Positions 1,524-49,144 are shown, numbered from the stretch's first letter. The stretch is DNA of 64,000 nucleotides from an uncultured Gammaproteobacteria bacterium (GCA_964567995.1 CAZMOB010000001.1:120591-184590); one strand, 5' to 3'. Notes: generated by a model not told the origin, from the letters alone. Translations and numbers: made by a program.

Positions 1524-1552
1524 TTGACAAAAAGCCCATTTTGTGCTATTTT
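1524..1552 (+). promoter_or_regulatory. Sigma70-type promoter for the GC-rich TPM-domain gene
   Basis: TTGACA (1524-1529), a 17-nt spacer, then TGcTATTTT (extended -10, hexamer 1547-1552). It lies about 90 nt upstream of ATG 1644. Confidence 0.5.
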
Positions 1553-1643
1553 ATACCGTTGCATGGTCACCGATATTTGGTGGCCATACCGCAGCATTCA
1601 GTACACCCTCACAATCCACCCCCCCCCATCGCAGGAGTCCGCC

Positions 1644-2327
1644 ATGAAGAAGTTCGCTGGTCTCGCCTTCGTCACGCTCTGTCTCGTCGTCGCCGCCTGC
1701 GTACCGGATCGGAATGAGTACCTCTCTCCGGATAGCGATCAGCACCTGACGGATTTCGTCCGCCGCTTCGACGATGATCAGCGCTTCAAGCTGACCCGCG
1801 AGTTGATGTCCTTCGAGGACACGACCGGGATCAAGCTTCAGGTCATCAGCATCGATTCCTTCCCCGACGGGTACGATCGGCAGATGTATGCGTCCATGCT
1901 CGAGAAGGATTTTGAGATGGATCAATCTGGTGCTCGTCGTCGAGTTGTTATCGTCCTCTTCGATCGGAAAGATCCTGTCCCTGAGCTGCCGGAGTGTCGG
2001 GTGGACATGCTCGACAACTTGCCTCCTGGGTGGCGTGACGCGCTTGGGAACAACACGGCGGCTCGTGCGATGGGTCGAGGGCATTGCCTTGAGGCGTTTC
2101 TCATCTCGCTCCGGCGTGTCGAGACCGTGCTCGCGCCGACCTTCCGACCGCCGCCCGGCTCGCTGCACGTCTACCAGCTCGCACCGAATACCTACGTGCC
2201 TACCTACGTCTACGGACTCGCTGCCTTGTGCTTTATCGCCGGCATCGCCTTGATCCGAGCGGCAGTGCGGCGCTTGAAGAAGCCGACCACCTCGACCGCC
2301 TCCTCGGGGGCCGCCATGGAGGGTTAG
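1644..2327 (+). CDS. TPM-domain (YgcG/TLP18.3-like) lipoprotein with C-terminal TM anchor; GC-rich
   Basis: The ORF 1524-2327 frame is used, with the start moved to ATG 1644, which is preceded by AGGAG (6-nt spacer). MKKFAGLAFVTLCLVVAAC is a lipoprotein signal with a lipobox Cys. The body resembles the TPM phosphatase fold (..TGIKLQVISIDSFP..RRRVVIVLFDRK..). A C-terminal hydrophobic helix reads YGLAALCFIAGIALI. Confidence 0.65.
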   Translation: MKKFAGLAFVTLCLVVAACVPDRNEYLSPDSDQHLTDFVRRFDDDQRFKLTRELMSFEDTTGIKLQVISIDSFPDGYDRQMYASMLEKDFEMDQSGARRRVVIVLFDRKDPVPELPECRVDMLDNLPPGWRDALGNNTAARAMGRGHCLEAFLISLRRVETVLAPTFRPPPGSLHVYQLAPNTYVPTYVYGLAALCFIAGIALIRAAVRRLKKPTTSTASSGAAMEG

Positions 2328-2354
2328 AACTCTTTACCGCTATACCGCGTTACC

Positions 2355-2424
2355 TGAAAACCGCACGCGCCATCTGGGCGAGTCCGCGGTCCCTCTCTCA
2401 GGTGGCGCGGTTTTCAGTTTCAAA
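2355..2424 (+). terminator. Hairpin terminator after the TPM-domain gene
   Basis: CTGAAAACCGC..GCGCCA pairs with TGGCGC..GGTTTTCAG (2355-2417) and is followed by a short T/A-rich run. Confidence 0.45.
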
Positions 2425-2485
2425 AATACCTCTTTCTAGCATTGACGGCTCGCCAGCTTTCTGACAACGGTGTAGAAGAAGAGCT

Positions 2486-4315
2486 ATGGAGCAACTTTTA
2501 AAACAGTACTTTGGGTATTCTCAGTTCCGACCTTTGCAGCGCGAGGTGATTGAGCATGTGATGTCGGGGAAAGATTCGCTGGTGCTTATGCCAACCGGTG
2601 GAGGAAAGTCGTTGTGTTTTCAGTTACCGGCGTTGGCATTGCCGGGGCTGACTCTTGTCATCTCGCCGCTCATCGCGCTTATGAAGGATCAGGTGGACGC
2701 GCTGACAGCGAACGGTGTGTCAGCTGCCTTCGTAAACAGTTCCTTATCCGCCTCTGAAGCTGAGCGGATTTGGCGGGATGCGTTGACCGGGAAGATCAAG
2801 CTCCTATACATCGCACCAGAGCGTGTGCCGGTTCTTCAGATGCGTTCAGATCTGCTACAGCTTCCTGTTTCCCTGATCGCCATCGACGAAGCGCATTGTA
2901 TTTCCGAGTGGGGGCACGATTTTCGTCCGGAGTATCGTCAATTGAACCTTCTACGAGATCTTTATCCAAAGGCTTCACTCGTTGCGCTCACAGCGACCGC
3001 TAATCCGCGAGTAAAGGAGGATATTTTGAAGCAGCTGAACTTCCGGCAAGGGAAAATTTTTCAATCCAGTTTTAATCGACCGAATTTGTTGTACCGAGTC
3101 ATCCCAAAGAAGCAATCGTTTGAACGGTTGTTGCATGAGTTGCGCGGTCGTGTGGGCCAGGCGGTGGTCGTCTATTGTTTTTCTCGGAAAAGCACAGAGC
3201 AAATTGCCGAACGTCTGGTGTTAAATGGCATAAAGGCGGCGGCGTATCACGCCGGCATTCCGGCGGAAGCGCGAGCACGGGTGCAAGAGCGATTCATTCG
3301 AGACGAAGTTCCAGTGATTGTTGCGACGATTGCGTTTGGAATGGGCATCGACAAGCCGGACGTGCGTCTGGTAGTTCACATGGATCTTCCAAAGTCCGTC
3401 GAAGGGTACTATCAAGAAACCGGTCGTGCCGGTCGTGATGGTCTGCCGAGTCAATGTTTACTGTTCTATTCCGCCGGGGATCGGGTGAAGCAACAGATGT
3501 TTATTCGAGATATGCCAAGCGTTCAAGAACGGCAGCGTGCCTACGCGCAACTTGAGCAGATGGTTCAGTATGGAGAGCTTCGTTCGTGTCGTCGCACGTT
3601 TTTATTGAATTATTTCGGTGAGCAGCGGAGCGAAACGACGTGTGATGCATGTGATGTCTGCGTTCCACAAAAAGAAGAGGTCGTCCTGTCGAAGGCGGTA
3701 GCTGAAGTTGGACCGTACGATGCGGGGCTCTTTGAAGCGTTGCGCGCGCATCGATTGCGACTCGCCCAAGAAAAAGGCGTGCCTCCATATGTTATTTTTG
3801 GTGATCGCACATTGGCGGATCTCGCGAGTCGCTGGCCGAAAACGCTTCAGGAACTGCCACAGATCTTCGGCATCGGTCAAACGAAGTTAGAACAATATGG
3901 AGAGAGCTTCTTATCCGTCATTAGATTGTATGCAGCTGAACATGGTTGGCCAGTCGTTTCTGCAGCTCCTCTGATCCAGCAAATTGCGGTTGTGAAACCT
4001 CGTGCAAAACAGAGTCTGGGCGACTCGGCAGCACATACGAAAGAGCTGTTTACTTCTGGAAAAAGCCTTGAGGAGGTTGCGAAGATCCGCAATCTGGCGC
4101 TTGGGACAATTCTACAGCATCTCGAAGAAGCGATTCAGCTAGGAGAAAAGATTTCGCTAGAGCGGTTGTCTTTTCCGGCGGATCGTCTCGCGGTGATCAA
4201 ACAAGCTTTTCAAGAGACGAATGGGTTTACGCTGACGCCGGTCTATCAAAAACTTGGGGCGAAATATTCGTATGATGAATTACGTTTAGCTCGGTTGATT
4301 TTACGCAGCCGGTGA
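2486..4315 (+). CDS. recQ: ATP-dependent DNA helicase RecQ
   Basis: LQREVIEHVMSGKDSLVLMPTGGGKSLCFQLPA (motif I), AIDEAHCISEWGHDFRPEY (DEAH box), Zn-binding CRRTFLLNYFGE..CDACDVC, and an HRDC-like region plus a C-terminal helical tail. 609 aa. Confidence 0.95.
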   Translation: MEQLLKQYFGYSQFRPLQREVIEHVMSGKDSLVLMPTGGGKSLCFQLPALALPGLTLVISPLIALMKDQVDALTANGVSAAFVNSSLSASEAERIWRDALTGKIKLLYIAPERVPVLQMRSDLLQLPVSLIAIDEAHCISEWGHDFRPEYRQLNLLRDLYPKASLVALTATANPRVKEDILKQLNFRQGKIFQSSFNRPNLLYRVIPKKQSFERLLHELRGRVGQAVVVYCFSRKSTEQIAERLVLNGIKAAAYHAGIPAEARARVQERFIRDEVPVIVATIAFGMGIDKPDVRLVVHMDLPKSVEGYYQETGRAGRDGLPSQCLLFYSAGDRVKQQMFIRDMPSVQERQRAYAQLEQMVQYGELRSCRRTFLLNYFGEQRSETTCDACDVCVPQKEEVVLSKAVAEVGPYDAGLFEALRAHRLRLAQEKGVPPYVIFGDRTLADLASRWPKTLQELPQIFGIGQTKLEQYGESFLSVIRLYAAEHGWPVVSAAPLIQQIAVVKPRAKQSLGDSAAHTKELFTSGKSLEEVAKIRNLALGTILQHLEEAIQLGEKISLERLSFPADRLAVIKQAFQETNGFTLTPVYQKLGAKYSYDELRLARLILRSR

Positions 4316-4396
4316 CTCGGACTCTCTTCCATAAAGGCGGATGGTCATGAGCCACCTGGCCAGAATGAAAGACGTAAAAAGGCTGAAGTTAGACGA

Positions 4397-4834
4397 TTAT
4401 GATTTTGATAGAGCTGAGTTCAGTGCTTGTCTACAGGTATCTTCCATGACGGATGAAGTGAATTTTACCGTCTTGAATTCTTCAAGTCCGATCCAGCGAG
4501 ATCCGACCATTTCGCCGGAAGAGGTGTCGACTTCTGCCTGATCATTTTTTGCGTTACACAGAAAATTTAGGTTTACGGTTTTTTGGCCGTGTCCATCTAC
4601 ATATTCGAAATACCCAAAAAGGCGTCCAACAGTTACGTCGATTCCTGCCTCTTCTCGTGTTTCTCGAATGACACCCTGTTCAATTGTTTCGCCTTGATCA
4701 ATTCCGCCGCCCGGAACCTCCCAAGTTCCGGGTAAGAATGCTTCATCATCATCTCCTCGCTTTAGAATAAGAACTTTGCCGTCTTTGACCATGAACGCAC
4801 TTACCGCGATTTTAAAAGCTTGTAGATCGAACAT
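4397..4834 (-). CDS. NUDIX hydrolase
   Basis: Nudix box GGGIDQGETIEQGVIRETREEAGI. 145 aa. Confidence 0.85.
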   Translation of the reverse strand: MFDLQAFKIAVSAFMVKDGKVLILKRGDDDEAFLPGTWEVPGGGIDQGETIEQGVIRETREEAGIDVTVGRLFGYFEYVDGHGQKTVNLNFLCNAKNDQAEVDTSSGEMVGSRWIGLEEFKTVKFTSSVMEDTCRQALNSALSKS

Positions 4835-4859
4835 AATGAGCTGACTATACCCATTTGTA

Positions 4860-5540
4860 TTATAGGCTCAACATCTTTTCTTGAATCGTTTCCGCAGTCA
4901 TCTGTTCTCCTGGAATCGCGTTTTTCACATCGTACGTTCCAATCATCGTTCGCCTTAGCGCGATCGCATATCCACCAACTCCCAACGCTTGCCCTAGATC
5001 ATCAGCGAGAGAACGAATATACGTTCCAGAAGTGCAATGCACGCTCAGCTCTAGTTTTGGCCAAACGTACGAACGAATCTCAAGTAGCGAAATCGTTACT
5101 TCTTTTGTTGGCCGTAGATCTTCTGTTGCTGTTCCCGCACGGGCAAGTTTGTAGAGGGGGGTGCCATGCAGCTTCTTGGCTGAGTAGAGGGGTGCTTTTT
5201 GTAAAAAGGTTCCTGTAAATGGTTTTAGGGCCTTTTGGATTTGCTCAAGGGTTGGCGGTGCCTTCTCTTTGTCCATTGTCTCAGTTACCTCACCCTCGCT
5301 ATCAAAGGTATCCGTTCGTTTGCCTAATTCGATCGTGACTGCATAGTCTTTTTCTAGCCCAACGAGCGGCGTCAGGGCTTTTGTTCCTTTTCCAATGCCA
5401 AGGATCAACAATCCCGTTGCAAATGGATCAAGCGTTCCGGCATGACCAACGGCACGGATCTTCAAAGCCCGTCTGACGCGATCAACGATATCGTGCGAGG
5501 TACAGCCAGCTGGCTTATCTACGAGAAGAAGTCCATCCAT
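4860..5540 (-). CDS. truB: tRNA pseudouridine(55) synthase TruB
   Basis: LLLVDKPAGCTSHDIV and GHAGTLDPFATGLLILGIG (catalytic Asp motif). 226 aa, lacking a long PUA tail. Confidence 0.9.
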   Translation of the reverse strand: MDGLLLVDKPAGCTSHDIVDRVRRALKIRAVGHAGTLDPFATGLLILGIGKGTKALTPLVGLEKDYAVTIELGKRTDTFDSEGEVTETMDKEKAPPTLEQIQKALKPFTGTFLQKAPLYSAKKLHGTPLYKLARAGTATEDLRPTKEVTISLLEIRSYVWPKLELSVHCTSGTYIRSLADDLGQALGVGGYAIALRRTMIGTYDVKNAIPGEQMTAETIQEKMLSL

Positions 5541-5542
5541 AC

Positions 5543-6919
5543 CTATGTTCCCTGACGACGAATGACGATCCCGATTGTTTTGAGAAGAATGGCTGCATCC
5601 AACGCGAACGAACGGTGTTTAATATAATATAAATCGTATTGGAGCTTGATGAGATTATCATCAAGCTGAGCGGTTGGAGTGAGCCAGACGACCTGTGCCC
5701 AGCCAGTGAGTCCCGGTCGGGTCAAATGACGGAGCGAGTAATATGGCATCTTGGCGATCAGCGGCTCGACGAACTCTGGTCGTTCCGGTCGTGGGCCAAC
5801 GAACGACAGATCTCCTCGGAAAACGTTCCAGATTTGAGGCAGTTCATCCAAACGAAGTTGGCGCAAAATGCGGCCGATCTTTGTGATGCGCGGATCTAAC
5901 TTTGTACTAGAGGTGAATTGTGGGCCTTGTGCTTCGGCGTTGATATGCATCGTACGAAGTTTCCAGATCTTGATCGGTTTTCCTTGGTAACCAACCCGTA
6001 CTTGGCTGTAGAAGATTGGTCCCGGTGAGCTGAGACGAACGGCGAGTGCCAGAAATGGCATGAGAACGAGTGTTACGAGACCAAACGGAACTGCCATCAA
6101 AATATCAAAATAGCGCTTTACACTTTCATACCAATGCTTTTCGCCTTCGCGAACATGGGTCAGAAACCAACGATCAGTCACGAAACGGAGAGGAATGCGC
6201 CCGGTGGTGAGTTCTTCGATCTCTGCTCGGTCGATCAATGTTACGGAATTCAAAAGCAAGCTATAGAGTAAGCGGTCGATCCCCTCGGTTTGTTCTTGGA
6301 GCTGACCCAGAACGACCGTTGTAATTTGATGTTCTTTGACGAGTCGATCGACGTTCTCGGCCATTTGTTCTCCTGTCTCTCCCGGGGTTGGCCAGTACTG
6401 CGCCACCAGTTTGTAGCCAAGGGAGCTTTGTTCGATGAGACGCTCGACATCGGCCGATTCACTCTCAGGGCCGATGAAGAGGATACGTCCTGTGATCAGA
6501 CGACGGTCCACGAGTTGCAGGAAACACAAACGCCAGGCATAGCCGAGCAAGAGACTCAGGGTAAAAATCAAGAACAGGTTCGTTCGTGGGGCGATCCCAA
6601 ATCCGGGGATGAGATAGAAGAAGGCTAAGCCTACCAGCAGGTTGCCGATCATGCCTTCGGCGAATGAGCGGAAAATCCGGAGGGGATTACGTAATAACGT
6701 CAGATTGTACAAGCCGGCTACATAGAGTCCGGCCATCCAGAGTAAAAACAAGATGCTAAATGGAATGAGATGCGCTTGCAGGTCGCTTTCATGAATCGCT
6801 CCGTAGCGTCCAGCCAAACTCAAAATCAACGACAATTCGAAGACGAGGAAATCTCCGATCATGAGAAGGGTTCGTTTGGCGTGTTGATGACGTTTTCTCA
6901 TAAAAGGCCCGTGGCCCAT
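5543..6919 (-). CDS. Polyprenyl-phosphate sugar phosphotransferase (WbaP/bacterial sugar transferase family)
   Basis: N-terminal TM helices and a C-terminal sugar-transferase domain (..LDELPQIWNVFRGDLSFVGPRPERPEF..DLYYIKHRSFALDAAILLKT). The exact start is uncertain. Confidence 0.85.
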   Translation of the reverse strand: MGHGPFMRKRHQHAKRTLLMIGDFLVFELSLILSLAGRYGAIHESDLQAHLIPFSILFLLWMAGLYVAGLYNLTLLRNPLRIFRSFAEGMIGNLLVGLAFFYLIPGFGIAPRTNLFLIFTLSLLLGYAWRLCFLQLVDRRLITGRILFIGPESESADVERLIEQSSLGYKLVAQYWPTPGETGEQMAENVDRLVKEHQITTVVLGQLQEQTEGIDRLLYSLLLNSVTLIDRAEIEELTTGRIPLRFVTDRWFLTHVREGEKHWYESVKRYFDILMAVPFGLVTLVLMPFLALAVRLSSPGPIFYSQVRVGYQGKPIKIWKLRTMHINAEAQGPQFTSSTKLDPRITKIGRILRQLRLDELPQIWNVFRGDLSFVGPRPERPEFVEPLIAKMPYYSLRHLTRPGLTGWAQVVWLTPTAQLDDNLIKLQYDLYYIKHRSFALDAAILLKTIGIVIRRQGT

Positions 6920-6964
6920 TTTCTGGGAATACTGTACGCTGGATCGGAAAAGCTTGTCTATACT

Positions 6965-8467
6965 ATGCGTGTCGCTCCTTTCCGTTGGCTGGTTATCGTT
7001 TTTTCGCTTATATTAGCGCTTATTTCGATATTTCCGGTCCAAGCAGCGACGTTTGTTATTCCGGATAACAATAATAGATATTGGAAGCGCCAATGGTATT
7101 TGCGCCAAATTCAAGCGCCCGAGGCCTGGCGACTCCTGCCGAATACCTTCAACGAGGTCACGGTGGCGGTCATTGATGCGGGCGTCGATATTACGCACCC
7201 CGATTTGAAGGACGCAATTTGGATCAACCCCAAAGAGATCGCAGGGAATGGAATAGACGATGATCAAAATGGATTCGTGGATGATATTCATGGCTGGAAC
7301 TTCGTAGCCAATTCGAACGATGTTCGACCACAAGAAATTGCCACTCAATTGGAAGAGGCCTGGAGTCACGGCACGTTTGTAGCTTCGCTCATCGGAGCGC
7401 GGGCAGCGAATCATCCTGGGATGGTAGGAGTAAACCAATCCGTGCGTCTCATGCCACTGAATGCTCTGGATGGTGATGGGTTTGGAACGATCCCACATGT
7501 GTTGAGCGCGATTCGTTACGCGGTGAACCAAGGGGCATCGGTCATCAATTTGAGTCTGGCCGGATTCGAGAGTAGTGAAGAGTTGGCCGAGATGATCAAA
7601 CGTGCCCGTGATGCGGGCGTGCTAGTGGTAGCTGCCACGGGCAATGGGACGACCCCAGCTGGTCGAGATATCGATAGTCAACCAGTCTATCCGGTGTGTT
7701 TTGATCAACAAACCAATGATGTGGTGGGAGTGAGTGGGACGGATGCGCTGGATCAGCATGCGGAATACGCGAACTATGGAAAGCGTTGCACGGACCTGTC
7801 GGCACCGGGCTATGACTTGTTTGGAGCGCGTCCGAGTTATCCACGACGAGAAGAGGGGGCTCGTCCAGCGGAGCGCTATTTGGAAGGAATGACTGGGACG
7901 AGTTTGGCAGCGCCGCTCGTAAGTGGGGTCGCAAGTCTTTTGAAGGCGGTTCGACCTGATTTGACGGTTGATCAGCTGCATACACTTTTAACGTCGACGA
8001 CGGACAATATTGAAGGTTCACTCAAGCCGTCTGAGCAAGGCAAAATGGGAAGTGGACGCTTGAATGCGCTGAAAGCGCTCCAATCAGCGTTAGCGTTTGG
8101 ACAAATACCGACCTCAACACCCGTACTACCTGTGAATGACGTGCCTGTTACAACGAATTCGACCTCTACCGAAGAATCACCGACCGCTACCTCGTTTTAT
8201 TATCGAACACCGACGACGACTCTGCGCTGGTTAATCGCTCCTAAGCCGCTCTGGCGGCAATGGAGTATGCGCGATGGGCAACCGCTGGCGTCTGTTGTAG
8301 TCAAAGAGGGGACGAACTATGTTTTGAAGCGCTGGACGCCGGTCACGAACAAAGAAACCAAGGATCGTCTCGTTTGGAATGTAAAACGCAAACTGTATGT
8401 GTTTACAGATAGCAAGACAAAGCAAGTTTGGGAGATCGATAAGCTTGAAAAAGTAACGAGTAAATAG
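6965..8467 (+). CDS. Secreted subtilisin-like serine peptidase (S8 family)
   Basis: Frame of ORF 6770-8467. Start chosen at ATG 6965 (MRVAPFRWLVIVFSLILALISIFPVQA signal peptide) to avoid overlap with 5543-6919. Catalytic triad contexts are VAVIDAGVD, SHGTFVAS and GMTGTSLAAPLVSG. Confidence 0.88.
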   Translation: MRVAPFRWLVIVFSLILALISIFPVQAATFVIPDNNNRYWKRQWYLRQIQAPEAWRLLPNTFNEVTVAVIDAGVDITHPDLKDAIWINPKEIAGNGIDDDQNGFVDDIHGWNFVANSNDVRPQEIATQLEEAWSHGTFVASLIGARAANHPGMVGVNQSVRLMPLNALDGDGFGTIPHVLSAIRYAVNQGASVINLSLAGFESSEELAEMIKRARDAGVLVVAATGNGTTPAGRDIDSQPVYPVCFDQQTNDVVGVSGTDALDQHAEYANYGKRCTDLSAPGYDLFGARPSYPRREEGARPAERYLEGMTGTSLAAPLVSGVASLLKAVRPDLTVDQLHTLLTSTTDNIEGSLKPSEQGKMGSGRLNALKALQSALAFGQIPTSTPVLPVNDVPVTTNSTSTEESPTATSFYYRTPTTTLRWLIAPKPLWRQWSMRDGQPLASVVVKEGTNYVLKRWTPVTNKETKDRLVWNVKRKLYVFTDSKTKQVWEIDKLEKVTSK

Positions 8468-8488
8468 CCAAGTAAATAAACGTAGGGT

Positions 8489-8620
8489 GTAAGCCGGGAT
8501 GTATAAGCCCTCACTTCGGACAACAACTCGCAACTTCACCAATTTTAATCGCGTTGCGATTGTTTTAGCGGTGTTGCTCAAACACGTTGTCCTCGTTCAA
8601 GCATGTACATCCCGGCTTAC
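8489..8620. other. Structured intergenic element closed by a 15-bp perfect inverted repeat
   Basis: GTAAGCCGGGATGTA (8489-8503) and TACATCCCGGCTTAC (8606-8620) flank 102 nt. The interior holds further complementary segments (AACAACTCGCAAC / GTTGCGATTGTT; GGACAAC / GTTGTCC). Confidence 0.4.
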
Positions 8621-8630
8621 CCAGTTTTTG

Positions 8631-8639
8631 TGATATACT
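8631..8639 (+). promoter_or_regulatory. Extended -10 promoter element upstream of the first epimerase gene
   Basis: TGaTATACT at 8631-8639, 13 nt before ATG 8653. No clear -35 element. Confidence 0.3.
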
Positions 8640-8652
8640 CCATGGGAATTGT

Positions 8653-9675
8653 ATGCCTGCTGCTCCTTTTGCTCGTCGGACCGTTTTAGTAACGGGTGGT
8701 GCTGGATTCATTGGATCCCAGCTGTGTGAAGCGTTGGTTAAAGAAGCGAACGTTATTTGCTTGGATAACTTCTCAAGTAGCACGCCTCGCAATATTGAAG
8801 CGTTGTTGCAGCATCCGTCGTTTGAATTCGTGAATCACGATATCACGCAGCCTTTGCAGCTTGATCAGATGCGAGAGCTGGAACGCTTCAAGTTGTCGGT
8901 GCAGGGGATTCAAGAGATCTATCATTTGGCTTGTCCAATTTCGAAGACGCATTATGAACAATTCCGGATCGCGACGATTCTTACGAATTCCATCGGTTTG
9001 AAGAATGTGTTGGATGTCGCCGTACGTTATAAAGCGAAAGTCTTGTATGCTTCATCATCAGTGTTGTATGGAGGTCGTCGCCCAGAGTCGCCGTACGTTC
9101 GTGAGGAATCGCCGTGTAATATTGACCATTTGACTTCGCACGGGGCTTACGACGAAGGGAAACGCTTTAGTGAGTCTGTGATCCAGACCTACGCAGATGT
9201 CTATGGATTGGATGTGAAGATCAGCCGTATTTTCCGAGCGTATGGTCCGCGGATGAAAATTGCTGACGGACATTTGCTGCCAGACATGATTATGAGTGCT
9301 CTTGATGGTCAGGACATTGTGATTCGAGCGCCTGAAGGAGCACGTGTCTCGTTGTGCTACGTCAACGATCTGATCGATGGCTTGGTGCGTCACATGGGAA
9401 CATCGATGGACGTCACGGTGGTGAATCTGGGATCGGATCATGATTTGTCGTGGGCCGAAGTCGCAGAAAAGATCATCCGTCTTACAAACAGCTCTTCGCG
9501 CGTACGTTTCGAGCCGCCGGAAGATCGCTCCTGGACGGAAACTCCGCTCCCGGATCTTCAACGTGCTCGTACCTTGCTGCATTGGGTGCCCCTCGTGCGT
9601 CTCGAAGAAGGTTTGGCTAAGATGATCGACTTTGCGCGCTCGCACCGCCAACAGATTGGTGTTTACCATAGCTAA
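8653..9675 (+). CDS. NAD-dependent epimerase/dehydratase, UDP-glucuronate decarboxylase (UXS)-like, copy 1
   Basis: Start moved to ATG 8653. VTGGAGFIGSQL Rossmann motif and AYDEGKRF catalytic YxxxK context. Whole-length similarity to the next gene. Confidence 0.85.
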   Translation: MPAAPFARRTVLVTGGAGFIGSQLCEALVKEANVICLDNFSSSTPRNIEALLQHPSFEFVNHDITQPLQLDQMRELERFKLSVQGIQEIYHLACPISKTHYEQFRIATILTNSIGLKNVLDVAVRYKAKVLYASSSVLYGGRRPESPYVREESPCNIDHLTSHGAYDEGKRFSESVIQTYADVYGLDVKISRIFRAYGPRMKIADGHLLPDMIMSALDGQDIVIRAPEGARVSLCYVNDLIDGLVRHMGTSMDVTVVNLGSDHDLSWAEVAEKIIRLTNSSSRVRFEPPEDRSWTETPLPDLQRARTLLHWVPLVRLEEGLAKMIDFARSHRQQIGVYHS

Positions 9676-9685
9676 CTGACCTCTT

Positions 9686-10708: not shown

Positions 10709-10720
10709 ACTAAAACGCAA

Positions 10721-10755
10721 CACCCGCCTTGGCGAAGTGCTGCGCCGGGCGGGTG
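10721..10755 (-). terminator. GC-rich hairpin terminator between convergent genes
   Basis: CACCCGCC..GGCG / CGCC..GGCGGGTG nested stem. On the minus strand it is followed by TTGCGTTTTAGTTT, so it best fits termination of the adenylate-kinase-like gene. Confidence 0.6.
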
Positions 10756-10772
10756 CGGGGAGAGGGGTGCTT

Positions 10773-11507
10773 CTAACCGTAGAGATGTCGAACGATCCTC
10801 TGGAAGGTCTCGTCCGGTGTGAGTACCGTGGTGTCGATCTCCACGATCCTCAGATCAGGTCGCCTGACCTGGCGGTAGGCGGCGATCGTGGGCACGACGT
10901 AGTGTTCGTACTCCGCGAAGCGGACCTCGAGGCGCTCCCGGTCGTCGTCGGGTCGGTGTCTGAGAGGTGCCTGCGTGATCGGATGGCGAGGATCCTTGGG
11001 ATCGATATTGTGCAGCGATACCGAGAAGGGCTCGTCGTGCTCATCGACGAAGCGGTCGTTGGCTCGCCGCCGAAGCTCAGCCTTGTCTGCGACCAGGATC
11101 ACGATCGCCGTTGGACGATTGATGCGGTTTTCGAAGAATTTGACTTGCGAAGGAAGGCGGGGGACGCCTTCCGCGAGCCAGTTGTCTTGGAGCTGAGGTT
11201 GATCGAAATGGGCTCGCAGCACCACCTCGACGATGTGATCCTCTACCATGATGCCTGCATGGATGGTAGCACGCACGCCCTCTGCATCCTTGCGAGAGAT
11301 ACCCATCTTCACGAGGGTGTCCGGCGGCTGCATCAGCATCGCTCTCGCCGAGAGTTGGGGCACGGGTCCGTTCAGACCGGCCTTCTGGCCGAGATACTGG
11401 GCCAGTCGATGGAAGATCGTGCCTTTGCCCGCTCCAGGCAGACCGGCCAGGCAGACCCGGCTGTTGGTGATCTTGTTCGTCGTCGTTCGGTCGTTTTCTC
11501 GCGCCAT
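10773..11507 (-). CDS. Divergent adenylate-kinase-family P-loop kinase; GC-rich
   Basis: GLPGAGKGT P-loop, an EGVPR (GFPR-like) motif and an RHRPDDDRERLEVRFAEY (R-x-DD LID/C-terminal) motif. AAGGAG lies 6 nt upstream of the ATG. The antisense ORF 10737-11555 is taken as a shadow. Confidence 0.7.
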   Translation of the reverse strand: MARENDRTTTNKITNSRVCLAGLPGAGKGTIFHRLAQYLGQKAGLNGPVPQLSARAMLMQPPDTLVKMGISRKDAEGVRATIHAGIMVEDHIVEVVLRAHFDQPQLQDNWLAEGVPRLPSQVKFFENRINRPTAIVILVADKAELRRRANDRFVDEHDEPFSVSLHNIDPKDPRHPITQAPLRHRPDDDRERLEVRFAEYEHYVVPTIAAYRQVRRPDLRIVEIDTTVLTPDETFQRIVRHLYG

Positions 11508-11599
11508 CGTATGCTCCTTCTGTTACGAAAACGCACCTTCTGTGAATTTCCGTAAACGGCCATCTTGTACCACGGTTTAGCTATTCTGCCCAGGATGCT

Positions 11600-11830: not shown

Positions 11831-11845
11831 CTCTTACGTTCTTGT

Positions 11846-23215: not shown

Positions 23216-23218
23216 CCA

Positions 23219-28703: not shown

Positions 28704-28727
28704 CCGATAAATTTTTAAAAAAAAGAG

Positions 28728-28784
28728 ACGCCCGGTCCGAGTCTTGCGAGCGCGGATGCGCGGCGCCTGACTCGGCCGGGGCGT
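28728..28784 (-). terminator. Long GC hairpin terminator for the small GC-rich ORF
   Basis: ACGCCCGGTCCGAGTC (28728-28743) pairs with GACTCGGCCGGGGCGT (28769-28784) with 2 mismatches. On the minus strand it is followed by CTCTTTTTTTT (plus-strand A-run 28713-28724). Confidence 0.6.
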
Positions 28785-28813
28785 GGAGCCTCTTCTTCGA
28801 TGTAACGCGACCT

Positions 28814-28924
28814 CTAGGGTCGCCCCCCACCAGTTTGTGTCAGCTCCGCGGGGCCGTCGGCTCCGCAGGTCGACTCCTCCTGCTGGTAGTGGTCGAAGAA
28901 GTTGATGTACGGTTGTCTGTGCAT
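28814..28924 (-). CDS. Candidate 36-aa small protein (MHRQPYINFFDHYQQEESTCGADGPAELTQTGGGRP); GC-rich
   Basis: Below the ORF-track size cutoff. ATG 28924 is preceded by AGGAG (9-nt spacer). The codons show a strong third-position G/C bias. The ORF has its own promoter (29049-29077) and terminator (28728-28784). Confidence 0.4.
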   Translation of the reverse strand: MHRQPYINFFDHYQQEESTCGADGPAELTQTGGGRP

Positions 28925-29048: not shown

Positions 29049-29077
29049 ACTCTAACAGAAATCAGGAAAAAAGTCAA
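29049..29077 (-). promoter_or_regulatory. Sigma70-type promoter (leftward) of a divergent promoter pair
   Basis: Minus strand: TTGACT (29077-29072), a 17-nt spacer, then TAGAGT (29054-29049). This implies a leader of about 120 nt before ATG 28924. Confidence 0.55.
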
Positions 29078-29128
29078 GTTAAGGCTTAGATTAGCCAAAA
29101 TATCTTTCCCACGAGGGTTCTATTTACC

Positions 29129-29157
29129 TTGACAAAACTGATAAAATGGGCTATGAT
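29129..29157 (+). promoter_or_regulatory. Sigma70-type promoter (rightward) of a divergent promoter pair
   Basis: TTGACA (29129-29134), a 17-nt spacer, then TATGAT (29152-29157). The leader to ATG 29265 is about 105 nt. Confidence 0.6.
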
Positions 29158-29264: not shown

Positions 29265-29858
29265 ATGAAGAAGCCCCGCAAAATCAACTGGAAGCTCGTA
29301 TTTGCCTGGTTCATCCCGGCGCTCTTCGGCCCCGCCTTTGCGCGGTTGGCCTGGACCTACCTGGAGCGTCTCGGTACGTGGGTTGGCGGCCATGTCGGCC
29401 TGCGCCCCTCGCTCCACCTCGAAGGGATCAGTCGTGTAGACGACAACGCCACCACCTTCTGGTGTCTCTACGCGGCGGGCATCCTCGCCTGGTGGCTCCT
29501 GCACAATCTCCTGGGATGGACTAAGGAGCGGGATGTATTTCGCGAGAAGCTGGGAAGATACTTCGTGCTTCCCGCATTCGTCGGCCCGGTCGTGGGCATG
29601 CTCATCTGGTGGCTGTTTCCGTACGTCTGGTCGCTGATCGATGCGTTCTTCGGGGCGATCTCCAGCTTCTTGCACGTGGGTGGCCTCTGGAGGACGATCG
29701 CGCACCTCCTCGAGTGGTGCTCCGAGCGCATCGTCGCCCTCTTCGATGCCGTTTGGCGCCTGCTCTGGACGGTGATCGCCCCGCCCGTCGGTCACTTCCT
29801 CAAGTGGCTGCTCCTTCGTCTCATTACCGCTCCTTTGAATTACATCGCTTCGCGTTAA
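29265..29858 (+). CDS. Trp-rich polytopic membrane protein (hypothetical); GC-rich
   Basis: 197 aa, 4-5 hydrophobic helices, many Trp residues (WKLVFAWF, LAWWLLHNLLGW, LIWWLFPYVW). GGAG lies 6 nt upstream of the ATG. The antisense ORF 29247-29876 is judged a shadow. Confidence 0.6.
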   Translation: MKKPRKINWKLVFAWFIPALFGPAFARLAWTYLERLGTWVGGHVGLRPSLHLEGISRVDDNATTFWCLYAAGILAWWLLHNLLGWTKERDVFREKLGRYFVLPAFVGPVVGMLIWWLFPYVWSLIDAFFGAISSFLHVGGLWRTIAHLLEWCSERIVALFDAVWRLLWTVIAPPVGHFLKWLLLRLITAPLNYIASR

Positions 29859-29873: not shown

Positions 29874-29918
29874 CACGCCCGGGGCCTGCGCATCTCGCGT
29901 AGAACCTCCCCGGGCGTG
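29874..29918 (+). terminator. 11-bp perfect GC hairpin after the Trp-rich membrane protein gene
   Basis: CACGCCCGGGG (29874-29884) pairs with CCCCGGGCGTG (29908-29918). A second hairpin, AAAGAACTAGC / GCTGGTTCTTT, at 29964-30003 ends in a T-run. Confidence 0.5.
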
Positions 29919-33232: not shown

Positions 33233-33309
33233 GGACGTTTAGCTCAGCTGGTTAGAGCGCACGATTCACATTCGTGAGGTCGCTAGTTCGATCCTAGCAA
33301 CGTCCACCA
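33233..33309 (+). tRNA. tRNA-Val (anticodon CAC), CCA encoded
   Basis: GGACGTT-TA-GCTC-AGCTGGTTA-GAGC-G-CACGA-TTCACAT-TCGTG-AGGTC-GCTAG-TTCGATC-CTAGC-AACGTCC-A-CCA. Confidence 0.93.
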
Positions 33310-35320: not shown

Positions 35321-35564
35321 GGAAATACGTCAAGAACCAATTATGGCTGCTAGTAACCGCTGAAAAGGTTGACTTTTATACTGAAGTATGAGAATTTTCT
35401 CTGTAACTAAATACAATAAAACATGAATTGGAAACGGCGTTTTTAAAGCTAAGAATTGGCCTTAAAGACGCCGTTTTCAACGAAGGCTAGGGAAGCGGAT
35501 GCTCCGACCAACTAGTTACTTGTACGGCGTTCCGCAAAGCAGCGGAAGTAAGGAGGATGAGACG

Positions 35565-36014
35565 ATGGTATGGAGAGCGCAACGTACAGATGTTCACGAG
35601 GTATTCAACCCTGGTGATCCCGCGCAGCTTCAACGGAGGCTCGACGACCTCCAGATGTACATCCTGGCCCGTTCGGTCACGGTGTTCTACGAACTCGTGG
35701 GCTACTCAATGGACCAGGAAGACGCATCCTATACCTTCGCGGGGGTACGGGTCATTCTCCGTAACGGCAAGCTGCACGCCGAGTTTCGTCTGAAGATCCC
35801 GGCTCCGCCGCCGCCTGAGGTCGCCACGTACGACCTCGAGACCGGGATCTTCGACGATCATCAGCTCGGTCAGAACTGCCCGGAGAGGTTCGTAGCTACG
35901 ATCGCGCTCGCCTATGTGGCTTCCCGTTGCTATCCGGAGCGTGTCGTCACATTCAAGATGAACGGCGACGTCTTCGAGGCCGAGAACGGCGAGATCTGGC
36001 CCAAGGTCGCCTGA
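35565..36014 (+). CDS. Hypothetical protein; GC-rich ORF nested in the low-GC islet
   Basis: Frame of ORF 35499-36014. Start moved to ATG 35565, which is preceded by AAGGAGG (8-nt spacer). MVWRAQRTDVHEVFNPGDPAQLQRRLDDL.. I recognise no family. Confidence 0.55.
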   Translation: MVWRAQRTDVHEVFNPGDPAQLQRRLDDLQMYILARSVTVFYELVGYSMDQEDASYTFAGVRVILRNGKLHAEFRLKIPAPPPPEVATYDLETGIFDDHQLGQNCPERFVATIALAYVASRCYPERVVTFKMNGDVFEAENGEIWPKVA

Positions 36015-47998: not shown

Positions 47999-48056
47999 TC
48001 TCTAAAACGCGCGACGCCCACCGAGCGGAGGGGCCGCGACGATGGGCGAGAGTTGG

Positions 48057-48431
48057 TTACCTCTTCTTAGGCCTGGGCGAAGCGCCGTACTCATTGAGCC
48101 GAGTTCTTGCCTGTTCGATCCATCGCACCCGGTCATCACGGGTATCGATGATTTCGTAGAACAGGCCGGCGATCCCACGAACGGGAGAATCGGGTGGAAG
48201 AATCCGTAGATCAGTGTTCTCCGAGACGATGCTCGACATAGCGTTGCGTGCATCCTCCTCGATGAGCTTCAGCTCGCCATCAGTCAGCGTAGTGAGCGGA
48301 GGTGTGGCGACCTTCGGCTGTCTTGCGACCACATCTTCTCCACCCGTCTGGTCACCCTCCACCAGGACCCCCGCGTGAATACTCCCTTGAGGCTGTGCTC
48401 TTCTGTTCCGTCTATGCGACTTCGCCATCAT
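48057..48431 (-). CDS. Hypothetical protein; GC-rich
   Basis: 124-aa ORF. AAGGAAGGA lies 6-7 nt upstream of the ATG. TTGACA (48482-48477 on the minus strand) lies about 45 nt upstream. Confidence 0.5.
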   Translation of the reverse strand: MMAKSHRRNRRAQPQGSIHAGVLVEGDQTGGEDVVARQPKVATPPLTTLTDGELKLIEEDARNAMSSIVSENTDLRILPPDSPVRGIAGLFYEIIDTRDDRVRWIEQARTRLNEYGASPRPKKR

Positions 48432-48548
48432 GCACCATCCTTCCTTGTGTGCAGACTAAGGCGAATTGCTGGTAAATGTCAATACAGTGAAGGTTTCAGG
48501 CATGAAGGAAGAGAGTCTAACAAAATTGGTGTCTCTCTAAAATTAGCT

Positions 48549-48597
48549 GTACCCGGCTATCGTTCTCGCGTGCTTCGCGAATACGATGGCCGGGTAC
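48549..48597 (-). terminator. Long near-perfect hairpin between the two GC-rich ORFs
   Basis: GTACCCGGC-T-ATCGT-TC-TCGCG-TGCTT-CGCGA-AT-ACGAT-G-GCCGGGTAC. On the minus strand an AATTTTAG stretch follows. Confidence 0.55.
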
Positions 48598-48625
48598 TTC
48601 TCCGACCGGCGAGCGCGCCTGGTCG

Positions 48626-49087
48626 TCACCTCCTCATCTTGTGAAGCAGAAACTTGGCCCTGTTGATCCAGCCTGCACGCTGCCAATCCCGCGGTCCCTC
48701 CTTCGACAGCCTCTTCACTTCCTCCCGCTCGCTCTCCGTGAGGTCCGTCTCGAACTTGAAGTCGCCGACCTGGCTCCACAGCAGGTCCTGGAGGTCGAGC
48801 ACCTCCTGGTCCGTCGGAGTTGTCATGGCGATCGGCTGCTGAGCAGTCTGTTGAGCAGTCTGCTGTCGCGCCGCCTCGAGCTGCGCTTCGCGCCGCTCCT
48901 CCTTCGCCTTACGCTCCGCCGGGGTACCTTTCCTGCGCTGCTTGCAGTACTGCACCCAGGCATGATTGGCGCTCGGCCGGCCACGTCGATCGTTGGGGAT
49001 CGACTCCCTCTGAATCCGCCCATCTCCGTCGCGCGGGAGGCTGTCTTTCTCCGCGCGCTTCTGTTTCCACTGAGTCGCTGTTTGCAC
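48626..49087 (-). CDS. Hypothetical basic/acidic bipartite protein; GC-rich
   Basis: Frame of ORF 48626-49123. The preferred start is GTG 49087 because GGAGG lies 7 nt upstream; the alternative is GTG 49123. An Arg/Lys-rich N-terminal half and an acidic C-terminal half. Contains a TAQQTAQQ repeat (tandem 12-nt repeat near 48837-48865). Confidence 0.5.
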   Translation of the reverse strand: MQTATQWKQKRAEKDSLPRDGDGRIQRESIPNDRRGRPSANHAWVQYCKQRRKGTPAERKAKEERREAQLEAARQQTAQQTAQQPIAMTTPTDQEVLDLQDLLWSQVGDFKFETDLTESEREEVKRLSKEGPRDWQRAGWINRAKFLLHKMRR

Positions 49088-49144
49088 GTGCAAACCTCCT
49101 CGCGCGGCAGGATACACATCCACTTTAGAAAAAGCAATATTACC

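What the first reader, a model, noticed from the sequence alone, without database searches (positions are those of the whole stretch)
1524..49123. Five short GC-rich patches (seven ORFs), all Shine-Dalgarno-led, scattered through an SD-poor ~50% GC backbone
By eye, the stretches at about 1560-2430, 10720-11530, 28725-29920, 35480-36130 and 48000-49130 are markedly GC-richer than their surroundings, with strongly G/C-ending codons.

Each of the seven ORFs in these patches has a canonical SD at the correct spacing:
- 1644: AGGAG
- 11507 (-): AAGGAG
- 28924 (-): AGGAG
- 29265: GGAG
- 35565: AAGGAGG
- 48431 (-): AAGGAAGGA
- 49087 (-): GGAGG

The flanking housekeeping genes I checked have no comparable SD upstream of their starts. 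These were recQ, truB, the S8 peptidase, both UXS genes, murE, gyrB, L25, ftsE, pepF, the ABC-F gene, engB and the paralog array.

Three of the ORFs also have textbook TTGAC(A/T)-17-TAnnnT promoters. All five patches are bounded by strong GC hairpins. None of the encoded proteins is a core function: a TPM-domain lipoprotein, a divergent adenylate-kinase-like kinase, a 36-aa peptide, a Trp-rich membrane protein and three ORFans.

The pattern looks like repeated small insertions from a GC-rich, SD-using donor into intergenic gaps of a conserved backbone. The donor could possibly be the host organism of an episymbiont. The insertion mechanism is unknown, since no repeats or recombinases are visible.
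Basis: partly seen in the sequence, partly recalled or inferred. Interest (0 to 1): 0.65.

Follow-up and report, generated by a model that had tools for sequence, protein, structure and literature searches.

The report
Old GC-rich orphan genes, not imports
Seven small GC-rich genes with classical ribosome-binding sites really do stand out in this candidate-phylum (Uhrbacteria-like) bacterium. At least two of the five patches are long-resident, fast-evolving, lineage-only genes whose odd composition is actively kept, not recent imports from a GC-rich host.

Summary
**Observation: confirmed.** The seven ORFs have GC3 of 0.62-0.81, against 0.52±0.065 for 59 backbone genes. All seven have a Shine-Dalgarno (SD) site (duplex ≤ -5.9 kcal/mol), against 3% of backbone genes (Fisher 5e-8). 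None has the backbone's usual T at position -1.
- Six of seven have a strong terminator hairpin.
- Three have a good sigma-70-type promoter.
- Independent assemblies reproduce patches 1, 2 and 5.

**Interpretation: only partly supported.**
- The genome is a Patescibacterium (Uhrbacteria-like), and the patches do sit at synteny breaks.
- P2, P4 and P5a are absent from the few available relatives.
- Patch 3 and P5b have positional orthologues in relatives whose backbone synonymous sites are saturated. These orthologues keep the same GC3 (0.71-0.92) and a conserved SD.
- The patch-3 orthologues evolve at dN/dS 0.25-0.42 (flanks ≤0.05) with ordinary dS.
- No patch protein has a homologue outside this lineage in about 15 billion proteins. 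P2 has only remote adenylate-kinase similarity and P1 a marginal TPM-domain match.
- GC-rich patches in family-level relatives share the same tetranucleotide signature.

**Best reading:** a resident class of self-contained, hypervariable accessory genes whose GC-rich, SD-led regime is maintained. The maintaining force is unresolved.

The parts
1524..1552 (+). Sigma-70-type promoter of patch 1 (TTGACA-17-TATTTT, TG-extended)
   Evidence: Best promoter-like site in window 1-12000, 10 of 12 matches.
1644..2327 (+). P1: 227-aa lipoprotein-like ORF with a marginal TPM domain and a C-terminal TM segment. SD AGGAG lies at about 1633-1637.
   Evidence: GC3 0.754, SD -6.9 kcal/mol. Pfam TPM 22.8 bits against cut-off 22.1. 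Only a self hit in 1.84 billion representatives. Independent Logan contig is 100% identical over window 1-7327.
2354..2417 (+). Terminator hairpin of P1
   Evidence: MFE -39.3 kcal/mol, z = -4.6, followed by UUUUCAGUUUC.
10720..10756 (-). Terminator hairpin of P2
   Evidence: z = -2.9. Also found by the terminator scan.
10773..11507 (-). P2: 244-aa divergent adenylate-kinase-like P-loop kinase. SD AAGGAG lies at about 11514-11519.
   Evidence: GC3 0.739, SD -8.0. Pfam ADK 49 bits, but far below every NCBIfam adk cut-off. Best PDB match 46 bits. No homologue at E<=1e-5 other than itself. Two independent Logan contigs are 100% identical. Absent from L082 and L087.
28719..28798 (-). Terminator hairpin of P3a
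   Evidence: MFE -46.6 kcal/mol, z = -3.7, followed by a U8 run.
28814..28924 (-). P3a: 36-aa peptide ending ...TQTGGGRP. It belongs to a repeat-peptide family found at the same place in relatives.
   Evidence: GC3 0.784, SD -7.2. SD-led peptides with 1-4 T(G/A)GGR(P/G) units occur in L001, L002, L003, L018 and L023.
29049..29157 (.). AT-rich core of patch 3 holding divergent promoters (minus strand 29077-29049, plus strand 29129-29157)
   Evidence: TTGACT-17-TAGAGT (9/12) and TTGACA-17-TATGAT (11/12). The equivalent core is better conserved than the coding arms between L002/L003 and L004/L018.
29265..29858 (+). P3b: 197-aa Trp-rich polytopic membrane protein with SD GGAG
   Evidence: GC3 0.808. 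Positional orthologues of 186-240 aa with GC3 0.86-0.92 occur in six relatives. tblastn to L018 gives E = 6e-6. hhalign to the orthologue profile gives probability 83%, E = 9e-6. The SD/start block CTGGAGTCnnCATGA is conserved.
29874..29918 (+). Terminator hairpin of P3b
   Evidence: MFE -35.3 kcal/mol, z = -3.2.
33233..33309 (+). tRNA-Val that anchors the window-specific island 33310-36448, which contains patch 4
   Evidence: ARAGORN and Rfam. The island is absent from L004 (33 bp) and L003 (657 bp holding a different gene).
35565..36014 (+). P4: 149-aa ORFan with SD AAGGAGG at about 35550-35556
   Evidence: GC3 0.747, SD -12.1. Only a self hit. No significant terminator. The AF2 model is unusable, pLDDT 45.6. 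The left junction at 35367-35377 is not spanned by the Logan contigs.
48015..48048 (-). Terminator hairpin of P5a
   Evidence: z = -3.4, followed by GUUUUAG.
48057..48431 (-). P5a: 124-aa charged ORFan with SD AAGGAAGGA
   Evidence: GC3 0.624 (the weakest outlier), SD -8.5. Only a self hit. Absent from L081. Independent contig L112 is 100% identical.
48545..48625 (-). Terminator hairpins of P5b
   Evidence: MFE -49.5 kcal/mol, z = -7.4.
48626..49087 (-). P5b: 153-aa highly charged ORFan with a GTG start and SD GAGGAGG
   Evidence: GC3 0.786, SD -12.5. Positional orthologues lie directly downstream of ABC-F in L109 (36% identity by HMMER; 34% in the codon alignment; GC3 0.78; SD GAGGAGGTTTGCAC conserved) and in L081 (74 aa, GC3 0.71, SD AAGGAGG).

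Best explanation
**What the patches are.** They are compact, self-contained expression units: an own promoter where one is detectable, a conserved SD, a short ORF and an intrinsic terminator. They belong to a lineage-restricted, fast-evolving accessory gene class of an Uhrbacteria-like Patescibacterium. They occupy long-lived variable slots between conserved operons.

**Shown.**
- They are compositionally and translationally distinct from the backbone. Patch genes have GC3-rich synonymous usage, an SD, and C or G at -1. The backbone has no SD and usually T at -1.
- At two slots the genes are inherited with their flanks: dS equals flank dS.
- They are weakly constrained (dN/dS 0.25-0.42, against ≤0.05 in flanks).
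- They keep their GC3 and SD through synonymous saturation.
- GC-rich patches carrying unrelated genes in family-level relatives share the same oligonucleotide signature.
- Other slots gain and lose such genes.

**Inferred.**
- The GC-rich regime is an actively maintained state, not a fading donor signature.
- The SD is functional, because it is the most conserved upstream block. The cell therefore runs two initiation modes.
- Turnover draws on a gene pool confined to this lineage, or its own mobile elements, rather than on a GC-rich cellular host.
- Several products are envelope proteins or small peptides, so surface or partner interaction under diversifying or relaxed selection is the likeliest role.

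**Unresolved.** The maintaining force is unknown. Regional GC pressure such as biased gene conversion, or selection on the transcript, fits better than codon-specific selection. The reason is that all S-ending codons, the UTRs and the terminators are enriched.
For: **Taxon and synteny.**
- GyrB is 90-94% identical to eight MAGs, and more distant hits are Uhrbacteria/Patescibacteria.
- The backbone is collinear at 66-79% nucleotide identity, and every break falls at a patch or at a tRNA-adjacent island.

**Patch 3.**
- All six close relatives have a ~2 kb GC 0.58-0.60 divergent pair at the same TrmB|g30003 junction. Its plus-strand ORF has GC3 0.86-0.92.
- Identity to the window's P3b is 18-32% while flanks are 82-93%.
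- L002-L003: P3b dS 0.61, dN/dS 0.42; flanks dS 0.47-0.57, dN/dS 0.02-0.03.
- L004-L018: P3b dS 0.94, dN/dS 0.25.
- Codon-position differences of 67/34/77 support coding.

**P5b.** Orthologues lie downstream of ABC-F in L109 and L081, with a conserved SD.

**Time depth.** Window versus relatives gives backbone pS 0.63-0.81, i.e. saturated. The SD/start block is the best-conserved upstream block among seven P3b orthologues.

**No outside homologues.** PHROGs and PADLOC give nothing.

**Shared regime.**
- Codon usage is the same in the window's patches and the relatives' patches.
- Tetranucleotide correlation between the window's patches and the patches of family-level relatives is 0.82. Backbone controls against the same patches give 0.62±0.05, maximum 0.73.
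- GC-rich, mostly SD-led genes sit between gyrB and g30003 in L011 and L037, and elsewhere in L007 and L016.

**Start context.** T at -1 occurs in 0 of 7 patch genes against 30 of 44 backbone genes (p = 0.001), and in 64-78% of relatives' backbone orthologues.
Against: - Only two of the five patches have demonstrable orthologues. P2, P4 and P5a are absent from the few relatives available, and P1's junction is not covered. A recent gain is not excluded for those four genes.
- The amelioration argument assumes that patch genes see the same mutation process as the backbone.
- Only two close pairs were available for dS, so re-seeding by recombination from an outside pool cannot be ruled out.
- The maintaining force is not identified:
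  - Start regions of patch genes are no more structured than backbone ones.
  - Codon preferences (AAG, GAG, CAG) do not look like classical translational selection.
- The 16S anti-SD of this genome was not available. About half of Parcubacteria reportedly lack the motif (PMC9297842).
- P3b homology to its positional counterparts is moderate (hhalign probability 83%).
Confidence: 0.5

Rival explanations
1. One reading: repeated recent insertions of small genes from a GC-rich, SD-using cellular donor (for example the host of the episymbiont) into intergenic gaps. The composition and SD would be un-ameliorated donor traits.
For: - Composition, SD and -1 context are all atypical for the genome.
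- The patches lie at synteny breaks. P2, P4 and P5a are missing from the available relatives.
- P4 sits in a tRNA-Val island that is absent from L003 and L004.
- The codon usage resembles that of a genome of roughly 62-65% GC (my estimate).
- HGT into Patescibacteria is documented (PMC12455944).
Against: - Patch 3 and P5b have orthologues with the same composition across synonymous saturation.
- No homologue exists in any sampled organism among about 15 billion proteins.
- P2 is only remotely similar to canonical adenylate kinases (46 bits to the best PDB entry), so it is not a recently moved housekeeping adk.
- The GC-rich aspartokinase of L011 is equally remote from all solved aspartokinases, including actinobacterial ones.
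- No recombinase, repeat or att site is present.
Confidence: 0.15
2. The patches are moron-like cassettes. They would be shuttled by, or periodically re-seeded from, an unsampled GC-rich mobile element or phage lineage that co-evolves with this bacterial family. That would explain the common signature and the self-contained promoter/SD/terminator design.
For: - The anatomy is an autonomous transcription unit of distinct composition placed between conserved genes.
- Unrelated GC-rich genes across the family share a tetranucleotide signature.
- Slots turn over: the gyrB|g30003 slot is empty in L006 and L008, holds the P3b type in the close relatives (GyrB 90-94% identical), and holds aspartokinase plus a NUDIX protein in L011 and L037.
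- A large serine recombinase sits at tRNA-Val in L001.
Against: - No PHROG hit and no phage or plasmid gene lies nearby.
- No terminal repeats are shared among the patches.
- The dS of patch-3 genes equals flank dS in both close pairs, as expected for co-inheritance.
- No copy exists elsewhere in 1.84 billion representatives.
- Phages are usually not GC-richer than their hosts (general knowledge).
Confidence: 0.2
3. Artefact: either the patches are contaminant DNA joined in by mis-assembly, or the ORFs are chance open frames in GC-rich non-coding DNA.
For: - GC-rich DNA carries long open frames on several frames.
- The left junction of patch 4 coincides with the ends of two Logan contigs.
- P3b itself was not called as a gene in the public collections.
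Against: - Independent Logan contigs, drawn from two sequencing runs, are 100% identical across patches 1, 2 and 5.
- Six independent MAGs show the patch-3 layout.
- GC1/GC2/GC3 follow the coding pattern in the proposed frames.
- Substitutions run pos3 > pos1 > pos2. In-frame dN/dS is 0.25-0.42, against 0.9-1.4 for the antisense frames.
- P2 carries an intact GxPGxGKGT P-loop and aligns to ADK over its whole length.
- No Rfam family matches.
Confidence: 0.04

Closest known systems
Phage 'morons' (extra genes in lambdoid prophages, each with its own promoter and terminator and a different base composition; recalled from Hendrix and colleagues, about 2000)
   Same: Single-gene autonomous transcription units lie between conserved genes, differ in composition from their surroundings, are non-essential, and vary between relatives.
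   Different: These sit in a cellular chromosome among gyrB, murE-type and ABC-F genes. There is no phage context and no PHROG match. At least two units are vertically retained across deep divergence.
Chromosomal hotspots and islets of the flexible genome, and bacterial ORFans (recalled: Oliveira et al. 2017 on HGT hotspots; Daubin and Ochman 2004 on ORFans)
   Same: Accessory genes are concentrated in a few slots flanked by conserved core genes. They are short, fast-evolving and taxonomically restricted.
   Different: Classical ORFans and islands are AT-richer than the host genome and ameliorate towards it. These are GC-richer by 0.2-0.4 in GC3 and stay so. The AT-rich islands of this window are a separate class that sits next to tRNA genes.
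SD-poor lineages with a small SD-led minority. Bacteroidia sequester the anti-SD and keep strong SDs on a few genes such as rpsU (recalled: Jha et al. 2021; McNutt et al. 2023). Parcubacteria often lack the anti-SD motif (PMC9297842).
   Same: Most genes start without an SD, and a handful carry a strong, conserved SD.
   Different: Here the SD-led minority consists of hypervariable orphan genes with their own codon regime, not a ribosomal autoregulatory gene. Whether the anti-SD is present or masked in this genome is unknown.
Diversity-generating retroelement targets and other hypervariable genes of CPR bacteria (for example the Gracilibacteria repeat gene, PMC6851277)
   Same: Locally extreme protein divergence occurs between near-identical strains of a CPR lineage, and envelope proteins are probably involved.
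   Different: No reverse transcriptase, template repeat or adenine-specific pattern was seen. Divergence covers the whole gene, and dS equals that of the flanks, so there is no targeted hypermutation.

Membership tests
Recently acquired horizontal-transfer islet | Composition atypical for the recipient genome | tested here: met
   GC3 z-scores 1.6-4.5. Tetranucleotide r = 0.66 against 0.86±0.02 for size-matched backbone controls.
Recently acquired horizontal-transfer islet | Absent from close relatives at an otherwise syntenic junction | tested here: inconclusive
   Met for P2, P4 and P5a. Not met for patch 3 (six relatives) or P5b (two relatives). P1 is not covered.
Recently acquired horizontal-transfer islet | Identifiable homologues in a plausible donor | tested here: not met
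   No hit outside the lineage in the 5.8-billion-cluster search or among the 1.84 billion representatives.
Recently acquired horizontal-transfer islet | Foreign composition decays with time (amelioration) | tested here: not met
   Patch-3 orthologues hold GC3 0.81-0.92 and P5b orthologues 0.71-0.79, although backbone pS is 0.63-0.81.
Mobile element (integron cassette, transposon/MITE, integrative island) | Recombinase or integrase, terminal or attC-like repeats, or target duplication | tested here: not met
   No motif is shared at the patch boundaries and the window has no recombinase at any patch. One 12-nt inverted repeat flanks P4, with a 5% chance expectation. The tRNA-Val island as a whole may be integrative, since L001 has a serine recombinase there.
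Phage moron | Own promoter and terminator with distinct composition | tested here: met
Phage moron | Located within a prophage or phage genome | tested here: not met
   The neighbours are recQ, UXS, gyrB, pepF and ABC-F. There are no PHROG matches.
DGR-diversified or hypermutated gene | Locally raised mutation input (dS above flanks), or a template/variable repeat pair with a reverse transcriptase | tested here: not met
   dS is 0.61 and 0.94 against flanks of 0.47-0.57 and 0.88-1.68. No repeat pair was found.
Adenylate kinase (P2) | ADK fold with P-loop GxPGxGKGT, scoring above the family thresholds | tested here: inconclusive
   Pfam ADK scores 49.2 bits, above the 26.8 cut-off, and the P-loop is present. 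TIGR01351 scores 73 bits against a cut-off of 168, and all equivalog models are far below threshold. P2 is a superfamily member, not an adk equivalog.
TPM-domain protein (P1) | Pfam PF04536 above the gathering score | tested here: inconclusive
   22.8 bits against 22.1, covering 76 of 125 profile positions. No NCBIfam match.
SD-led minority regulon in an SD-independent lineage (Bacteroidia-type) | Anti-SD present in 16S rRNA but little used; few genes with a conserved strong SD | not testable with these tools
   Backbone SD frequency is at or below chance, and SD conservation in patch orthologues is shown. No 16S rRNA is present in the window or in any fetched locus.

The most novel reading that the evidence does not exclude
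This Uhrbacteria-like family may run two translation-initiation regimes in one cell. Housekeeping genes start without an SD, usually as UAUG. A hypervariable set of small envelope, peptide and kinase genes is instead marked by a conserved strong SD, C or G at -1 and an actively maintained GC3-rich codon regime. This could give conditional or privileged translation of partner-interaction genes, or matching to a GC-rich SD-using partner. If so, compositional atypicality here is a maintained functional state and not a transfer scar.
Probability: 0.12. Interest if true: 0.8.

Novelty: new variant of a known kind. Interest (0 to 1): 0.55.

Why it matters
- **Method.** Compositional outliers are routinely scored as recent horizontal transfer, including in studies of Patescibacteria. 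Here the outlier state persists through synonymous saturation at two slots. Such calls would therefore be wrong in this lineage, and some force other than genome-wide mutation bias must set base composition locally.
- **Biology of the lineage.** The finding picks out a small set of self-contained, very fast-evolving genes: membrane proteins, repeat peptides and divergent kinases. These are candidates for the still unknown partner-interaction genes of uncultured Uhrbacteria.
- **Translation.** SD-led and SD-less genes coexist, and they also differ in start context. This offers a natural test case for how translation starts in Parcubacteria, a group in which loss of the anti-SD has been reported.

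Tried and rejected
1. A concatenated query (RecQ + UXS2 + ABC-F) in the word-indexed protein search was swamped by distant RecQ hits of 43-60% identity. It gave no close relatives and cost one search.
2. Exact-protein look-ups failed for GyrB, P3b, the TrmB-like gene, DUF3048 and g30003. The public gene calls differ or are absent, so no independent contig across patch 3 was obtained.
3. The AlphaFold2 model of P4 without an alignment had pLDDT 45.6. It was not used and no fold search was run.
4. 'SD compensates for stronger 5' structure in GC-rich mRNAs' is not supported. MFE over -30..+30 is -10.3 against -9.1 (p = 0.5), and the first 45 nt of patch genes are only 51% GC.
5. Local hypermutation or a DGR is rejected, because patch dS equals flank dS.
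6. 'Relaxed genes drift to a GC-rich mutational equilibrium' finds no support. By inspection of eight backbone genes, faster-evolving ones do not have higher GC3; no formal test was run.
7. Classical translational selection is unlikely. AAG, GAG and CAG are preferred. The strongest-SD backbone gene (57232-57819, function not checked) has ordinary GC3 of 0.50.
8. No boundary motif is shared among the patches, and no Rfam family other than four tRNAs matches.
9. PHROGs and PADLOC gave no match for any patch protein.
10. No 16S rRNA 3' end was found in the 109 loci fetched by that point.
11. My automatic gene caller often picked antisense frames in GC-rich DNA. The family-wide SD statistics are therefore only indicative.


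Full report

Yes. The window averages 51.4% GC. The 400-nt profile rises to 0.58-0.645 exactly at the five places named.

With a curated list of 66 genes, the seven patch ORFs have GC3 of 0.62-0.81. The 59 backbone genes have mean 0.517, sd 0.065 and maximum 0.615. P5a is the weakest outlier.

Amino-acid composition matches the backbone. The difference is synonymous: ATC 0.91, AAG 0.84, GAG 0.82, TTC 0.81 and TAC 0.83, with all S-ending codons favoured.

The SD claim holds quantitatively.
- Duplex energy with a generic anti-SD is -5.9 to -12.5 kcal/mol for all seven patch genes.
- Only 2 of 59 backbone genes reach -5.9. That is below the 10% seen at random ATGs (Fisher p = 5e-8).
- The contrast survives giving every backbone gene its best alternative start.

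A second, unreported difference is the start context.
- Backbone ATG starts have T at -1 in 30 of 44 cases.
- Backbone orthologues in relatives have T there in 64-78% of cases.
- None of the seven patch genes has T at -1 (p = 0.001).

Expression signals were checked directly.
- Six of seven ORFs are followed by a hairpin far more stable than shuffled sequence (z = -2.9 to -7.4). P4 is not.
- Strong promoter-like sites precede P1, P3b and P3a. The one proposed for P5a is weaker.
- The tetranucleotide signature, normalised for base composition, separates the patches from the backbone: r = 0.66, against 0.86±0.02 for size-matched backbone controls.

**2. What organism, and are the patches assembly artefacts?**

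GyrB finds eight MAGs at 90-94% identity. It also finds a wide set of Candidatus Uhrbacteria and other Patescibacteria at 60-78%.

Independent Logan contigs, drawn from two sequencing runs (SRR13208889 and SRR13208906), are 100% identical to the window across patch 1, patch 2 and both genes of patch 5. Patch 3 has the same layout in six independent MAGs.

Only the left edge of patch 4 is unsupported. One Logan contig ends at 35377 and another starts at 35367.

**3. Synteny**

The backbone is collinear with relatives at 66-79% nucleotide identity. Every break falls at a patch or at a low-GC island next to a tRNA gene.

- **Patch 2.** The ADK-like gene is replaced by a 971-aa gene of normal GC in L082. 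L087 has nothing there.
- **Patch 4.** It lies inside a 3.1-kb island that starts right after tRNA-Val. The island is missing in L004 (33 bp) and L003. L001 has a large serine recombinase at that tRNA.
- **Patch 5.** L081 lacks g47450 and P5a. It keeps a 74-aa, GC3 0.71, SD-led ORF directly downstream of ABC-F that resembles the C-terminus of P5b.
- **P5b, second orthologue.** A full HMMER search found one further P5b relative, on L109. It also sits right after ABC-F (C-terminus 88% identical), has GC3 0.78, is only 34-36% identical in protein, and has the same SD, GAGGAGGTTTGCAC.
- **Patch 3.** All six close relatives have a ~2 kb GC-rich divergent pair with an AT-rich promoter core at the same TrmB|g30003 junction.
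  - The plus arm encodes a 186-240-aa membrane protein with GC3 0.86-0.92.
  - The block CTGGAGTCnnCATGA is the best-conserved upstream segment.
  - Homology to P3b is modest but supported: tblastn E = 6e-6, hhalign probability 83%.
- **Patch 1.** Its junction is not covered by any relative I could fetch.

**4. How do these genes evolve?**

Between L002 and L003 the flanking proteins are 97-100% identical, but the P3b orthologues are only 61% identical. L004 and L018 behave the same way. Nucleotide identity drops to 58-78% precisely over the two GC-rich arms. The AT-rich promoter core stays at 80-93%.

This is not hypermutation:

| Pair | P3b dS | Flank dS | P3b dN/dS | Flank dN/dS |
|---|---|---|---|---|
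| L002-L003 | 0.61 | 0.47-0.57 | 0.42 | 0.02-0.03 |
| L004-L018 | 0.94 | 0.88-1.68 | 0.25 | 0.01-0.05 |

Differences run pos3 > pos1 > pos2. Antisense frames give dN/dS of 0.9-1.4, so the proposed frames are coding.

The genes are therefore co-inherited with their flanks and only weakly constrained.

Between the window and its closest relatives, backbone synonymous sites are saturated (pS 0.63-0.81). Under a Lawrence-Ochman type amelioration model (recalled), a foreign GC3 excess should have shrunk to a small fraction. It has not: P3b orthologues still have GC3 of 0.81-0.92, and P5b orthologues 0.71-0.79.

**5. Where could they come from?**

No source is visible.
- The five ORFans have no hit at E ≤ 0.01 in the word-indexed search of 5.8 billion clusters.
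- A full HMMER pass over 1.84 billion representatives gave only self hits plus the L109 orthologue.
- P2 has no homologue at E ≤ 1e-5 other than itself. It is only remotely like canonical adenylate kinases.
- PHROGs, PADLOC and Rfam give nothing.
- No boundary repeat is shared among the patches.

The phenomenon is family-wide.
- In GyrB-77% relatives, the slot between gyrB and g30003 holds 2.5-4 kb of GC 0.60-0.69 DNA. It encodes a divergent aspartokinase and a NUDIX-like protein (L011, L037).
- Other relatives have GC-rich, SD-led lipoprotein-like ORFs (L007, L016).
- In further relatives gyrB abuts g30003 directly.
- These non-homologous GC-rich genes share the window patches' tetranucleotide signature: r = 0.82, against 0.62±0.05 (maximum 0.73) for backbone controls.

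**6. Explanation**

The evidence fits a resident, lineage-restricted class of self-contained accessory genes. They occupy long-lived variable slots, turn over by gain and loss, evolve quickly, and are held in a GC-rich, SD-led regime distinct from the SD-less, U(-1) backbone.

The conserved SD argues that it is used. Literature reports that about half of Parcubacteria 16S genes lack the anti-SD motif (PMC9297842). The state of this genome's 16S is therefore the key missing datum.

What maintains the GC-richness is unresolved. All S-ending codons, the 5' leaders and the terminators are enriched, while the promoter core is AT-rich. That points to regional pressure or selection on the transcript, not to tRNA-matched codon selection.

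Three ideas found no support:
- extra 5' structure;
- classical translational selection;
- drift of relaxed genes towards a GC-rich mutational equilibrium.

It is contradicted for patch 3 and P5b, and no donor can be named. A moron-like supply from an unsampled GC-rich mobile element of this lineage is the main alternative.

**7. Comparison with known systems and verdict**

- The anatomy resembles phage morons, but there is no phage context.
- The genomic placement resembles flexible-genome hotspots and ORFans. Those are typically AT-rich and ameliorate; these do not.
- The SD-led minority in an SD-poor genome recalls Bacteroidia, but the genes concerned differ.

I rate this a new variant of a known kind, with moderate interest. 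It is a clear, quantified case where compositional atypicality is not a recent-transfer scar. It also points to a possible dual initiation regime in Parcubacteria.

Noticed in passing
window, 44 ATG-start backbone genes (for example 2486, 9686, 25868, 40529); also backbone orthologues in L001-L037: The backbone start context is strongly biased to T at -1 (UAUG): 68% T and 2% A in the window, and 64-78% T in relatives. There is no purine-rich SD region (G 0.21 at -15..-5). This suggests SD-independent initiation with an extended start context.
   Followed up: partly
window 28814-28924 (-); L001 about 13344-13508, L002 about 13037-13201, L003 about 13281-13472, L018 2949-3092, L023 about 9625-9759 (all minus strand): A family of SD-led short peptides (36-63 aa) carries 1-4 copies of T(G/A)GGR(P/G)(C) and often ends ...TGGGRP-stop. 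The repeats are encoded by ~30-nt GC-rich DNA units. The gene is always divergent from the Trp-rich membrane protein gene and lies next to a TrmB-like regulator. It could be a repeat-core peptide precursor or an arrest/leader peptide.
   Followed up: partly
window 33233-36448; 22063-23294; 58772-63957: Low-GC (0.40-0.47) variable DNA sits immediately after tRNA genes.
- tRNA-Val is followed by two haem-oxygenase-like (PF14518) genes, a 154-aa gene and P4.
- tRNA-Thr is followed by a window-specific 361-aa ORFan. L002 has a different 4-kb insert there with a ResIII helicase.
- tRNA-Gln is followed by the five-gene paralogue array.

L001 has a large serine recombinase at the tRNA-Val site.
   Followed up: partly
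window 35363-35374 (+) and 36473-36484 (-): An exact 12-nt inverted repeat, AAAAGGTTGACT, brackets the P4 segment. Two matches arise in 5% of shuffles. Two Logan contigs end and start inside its left copy (35367-35377), which hints at population heterogeneity at this junction.
   Followed up: partly
L002 versus L003 (11000-16000) and L004 versus L018 (11500-16000): The identity pattern between near relatives is mosaic: tracts of 100% identity lie next to tracts of 80-90%. This implies frequent homologous recombination. In both pairs a 99-100% tract begins exactly at the right edge of the GC-rich patch.
   Followed up: no
window 2486-4315 (recQ): The best matches to RecQ in 5.8 billion protein clusters are only 43-60% identical. 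Among the hits that carry a source name, nearly all are non-Patescibacteria (Caldilineaceae, Bryobacterales, Planctomycetota) and only one names a Patescibacterium. This backbone gene may itself have a foreign history.
   Followed up: no
window 8811 (inside UXS1, 8587-9675): Both independent Logan contigs that cover patch 2 end at exactly this base. The likely cause is similarity between the tandem UXS paralogues (8587-9675 and 9686-10708).
   Followed up: no
window 50914-51816: Two normal-GC genes (50914-51390 + and 51373-51816 -) are absent from the close relative L081, which has only 85 bp there. Slot turnover is therefore not limited to GC-rich genes.
   Followed up: no
L011 5143-7678; L037 4600-8680: Family-level relatives carry 2.5-4 kb GC-rich (0.60-0.69) inserts between gyrB and the g30003 homologue. 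The inserts encode a divergent aspartokinase (AA_kinase + ACT; best PDB match 135 bits, archaeal) and a NUDIX-like protein.
   Followed up: partly
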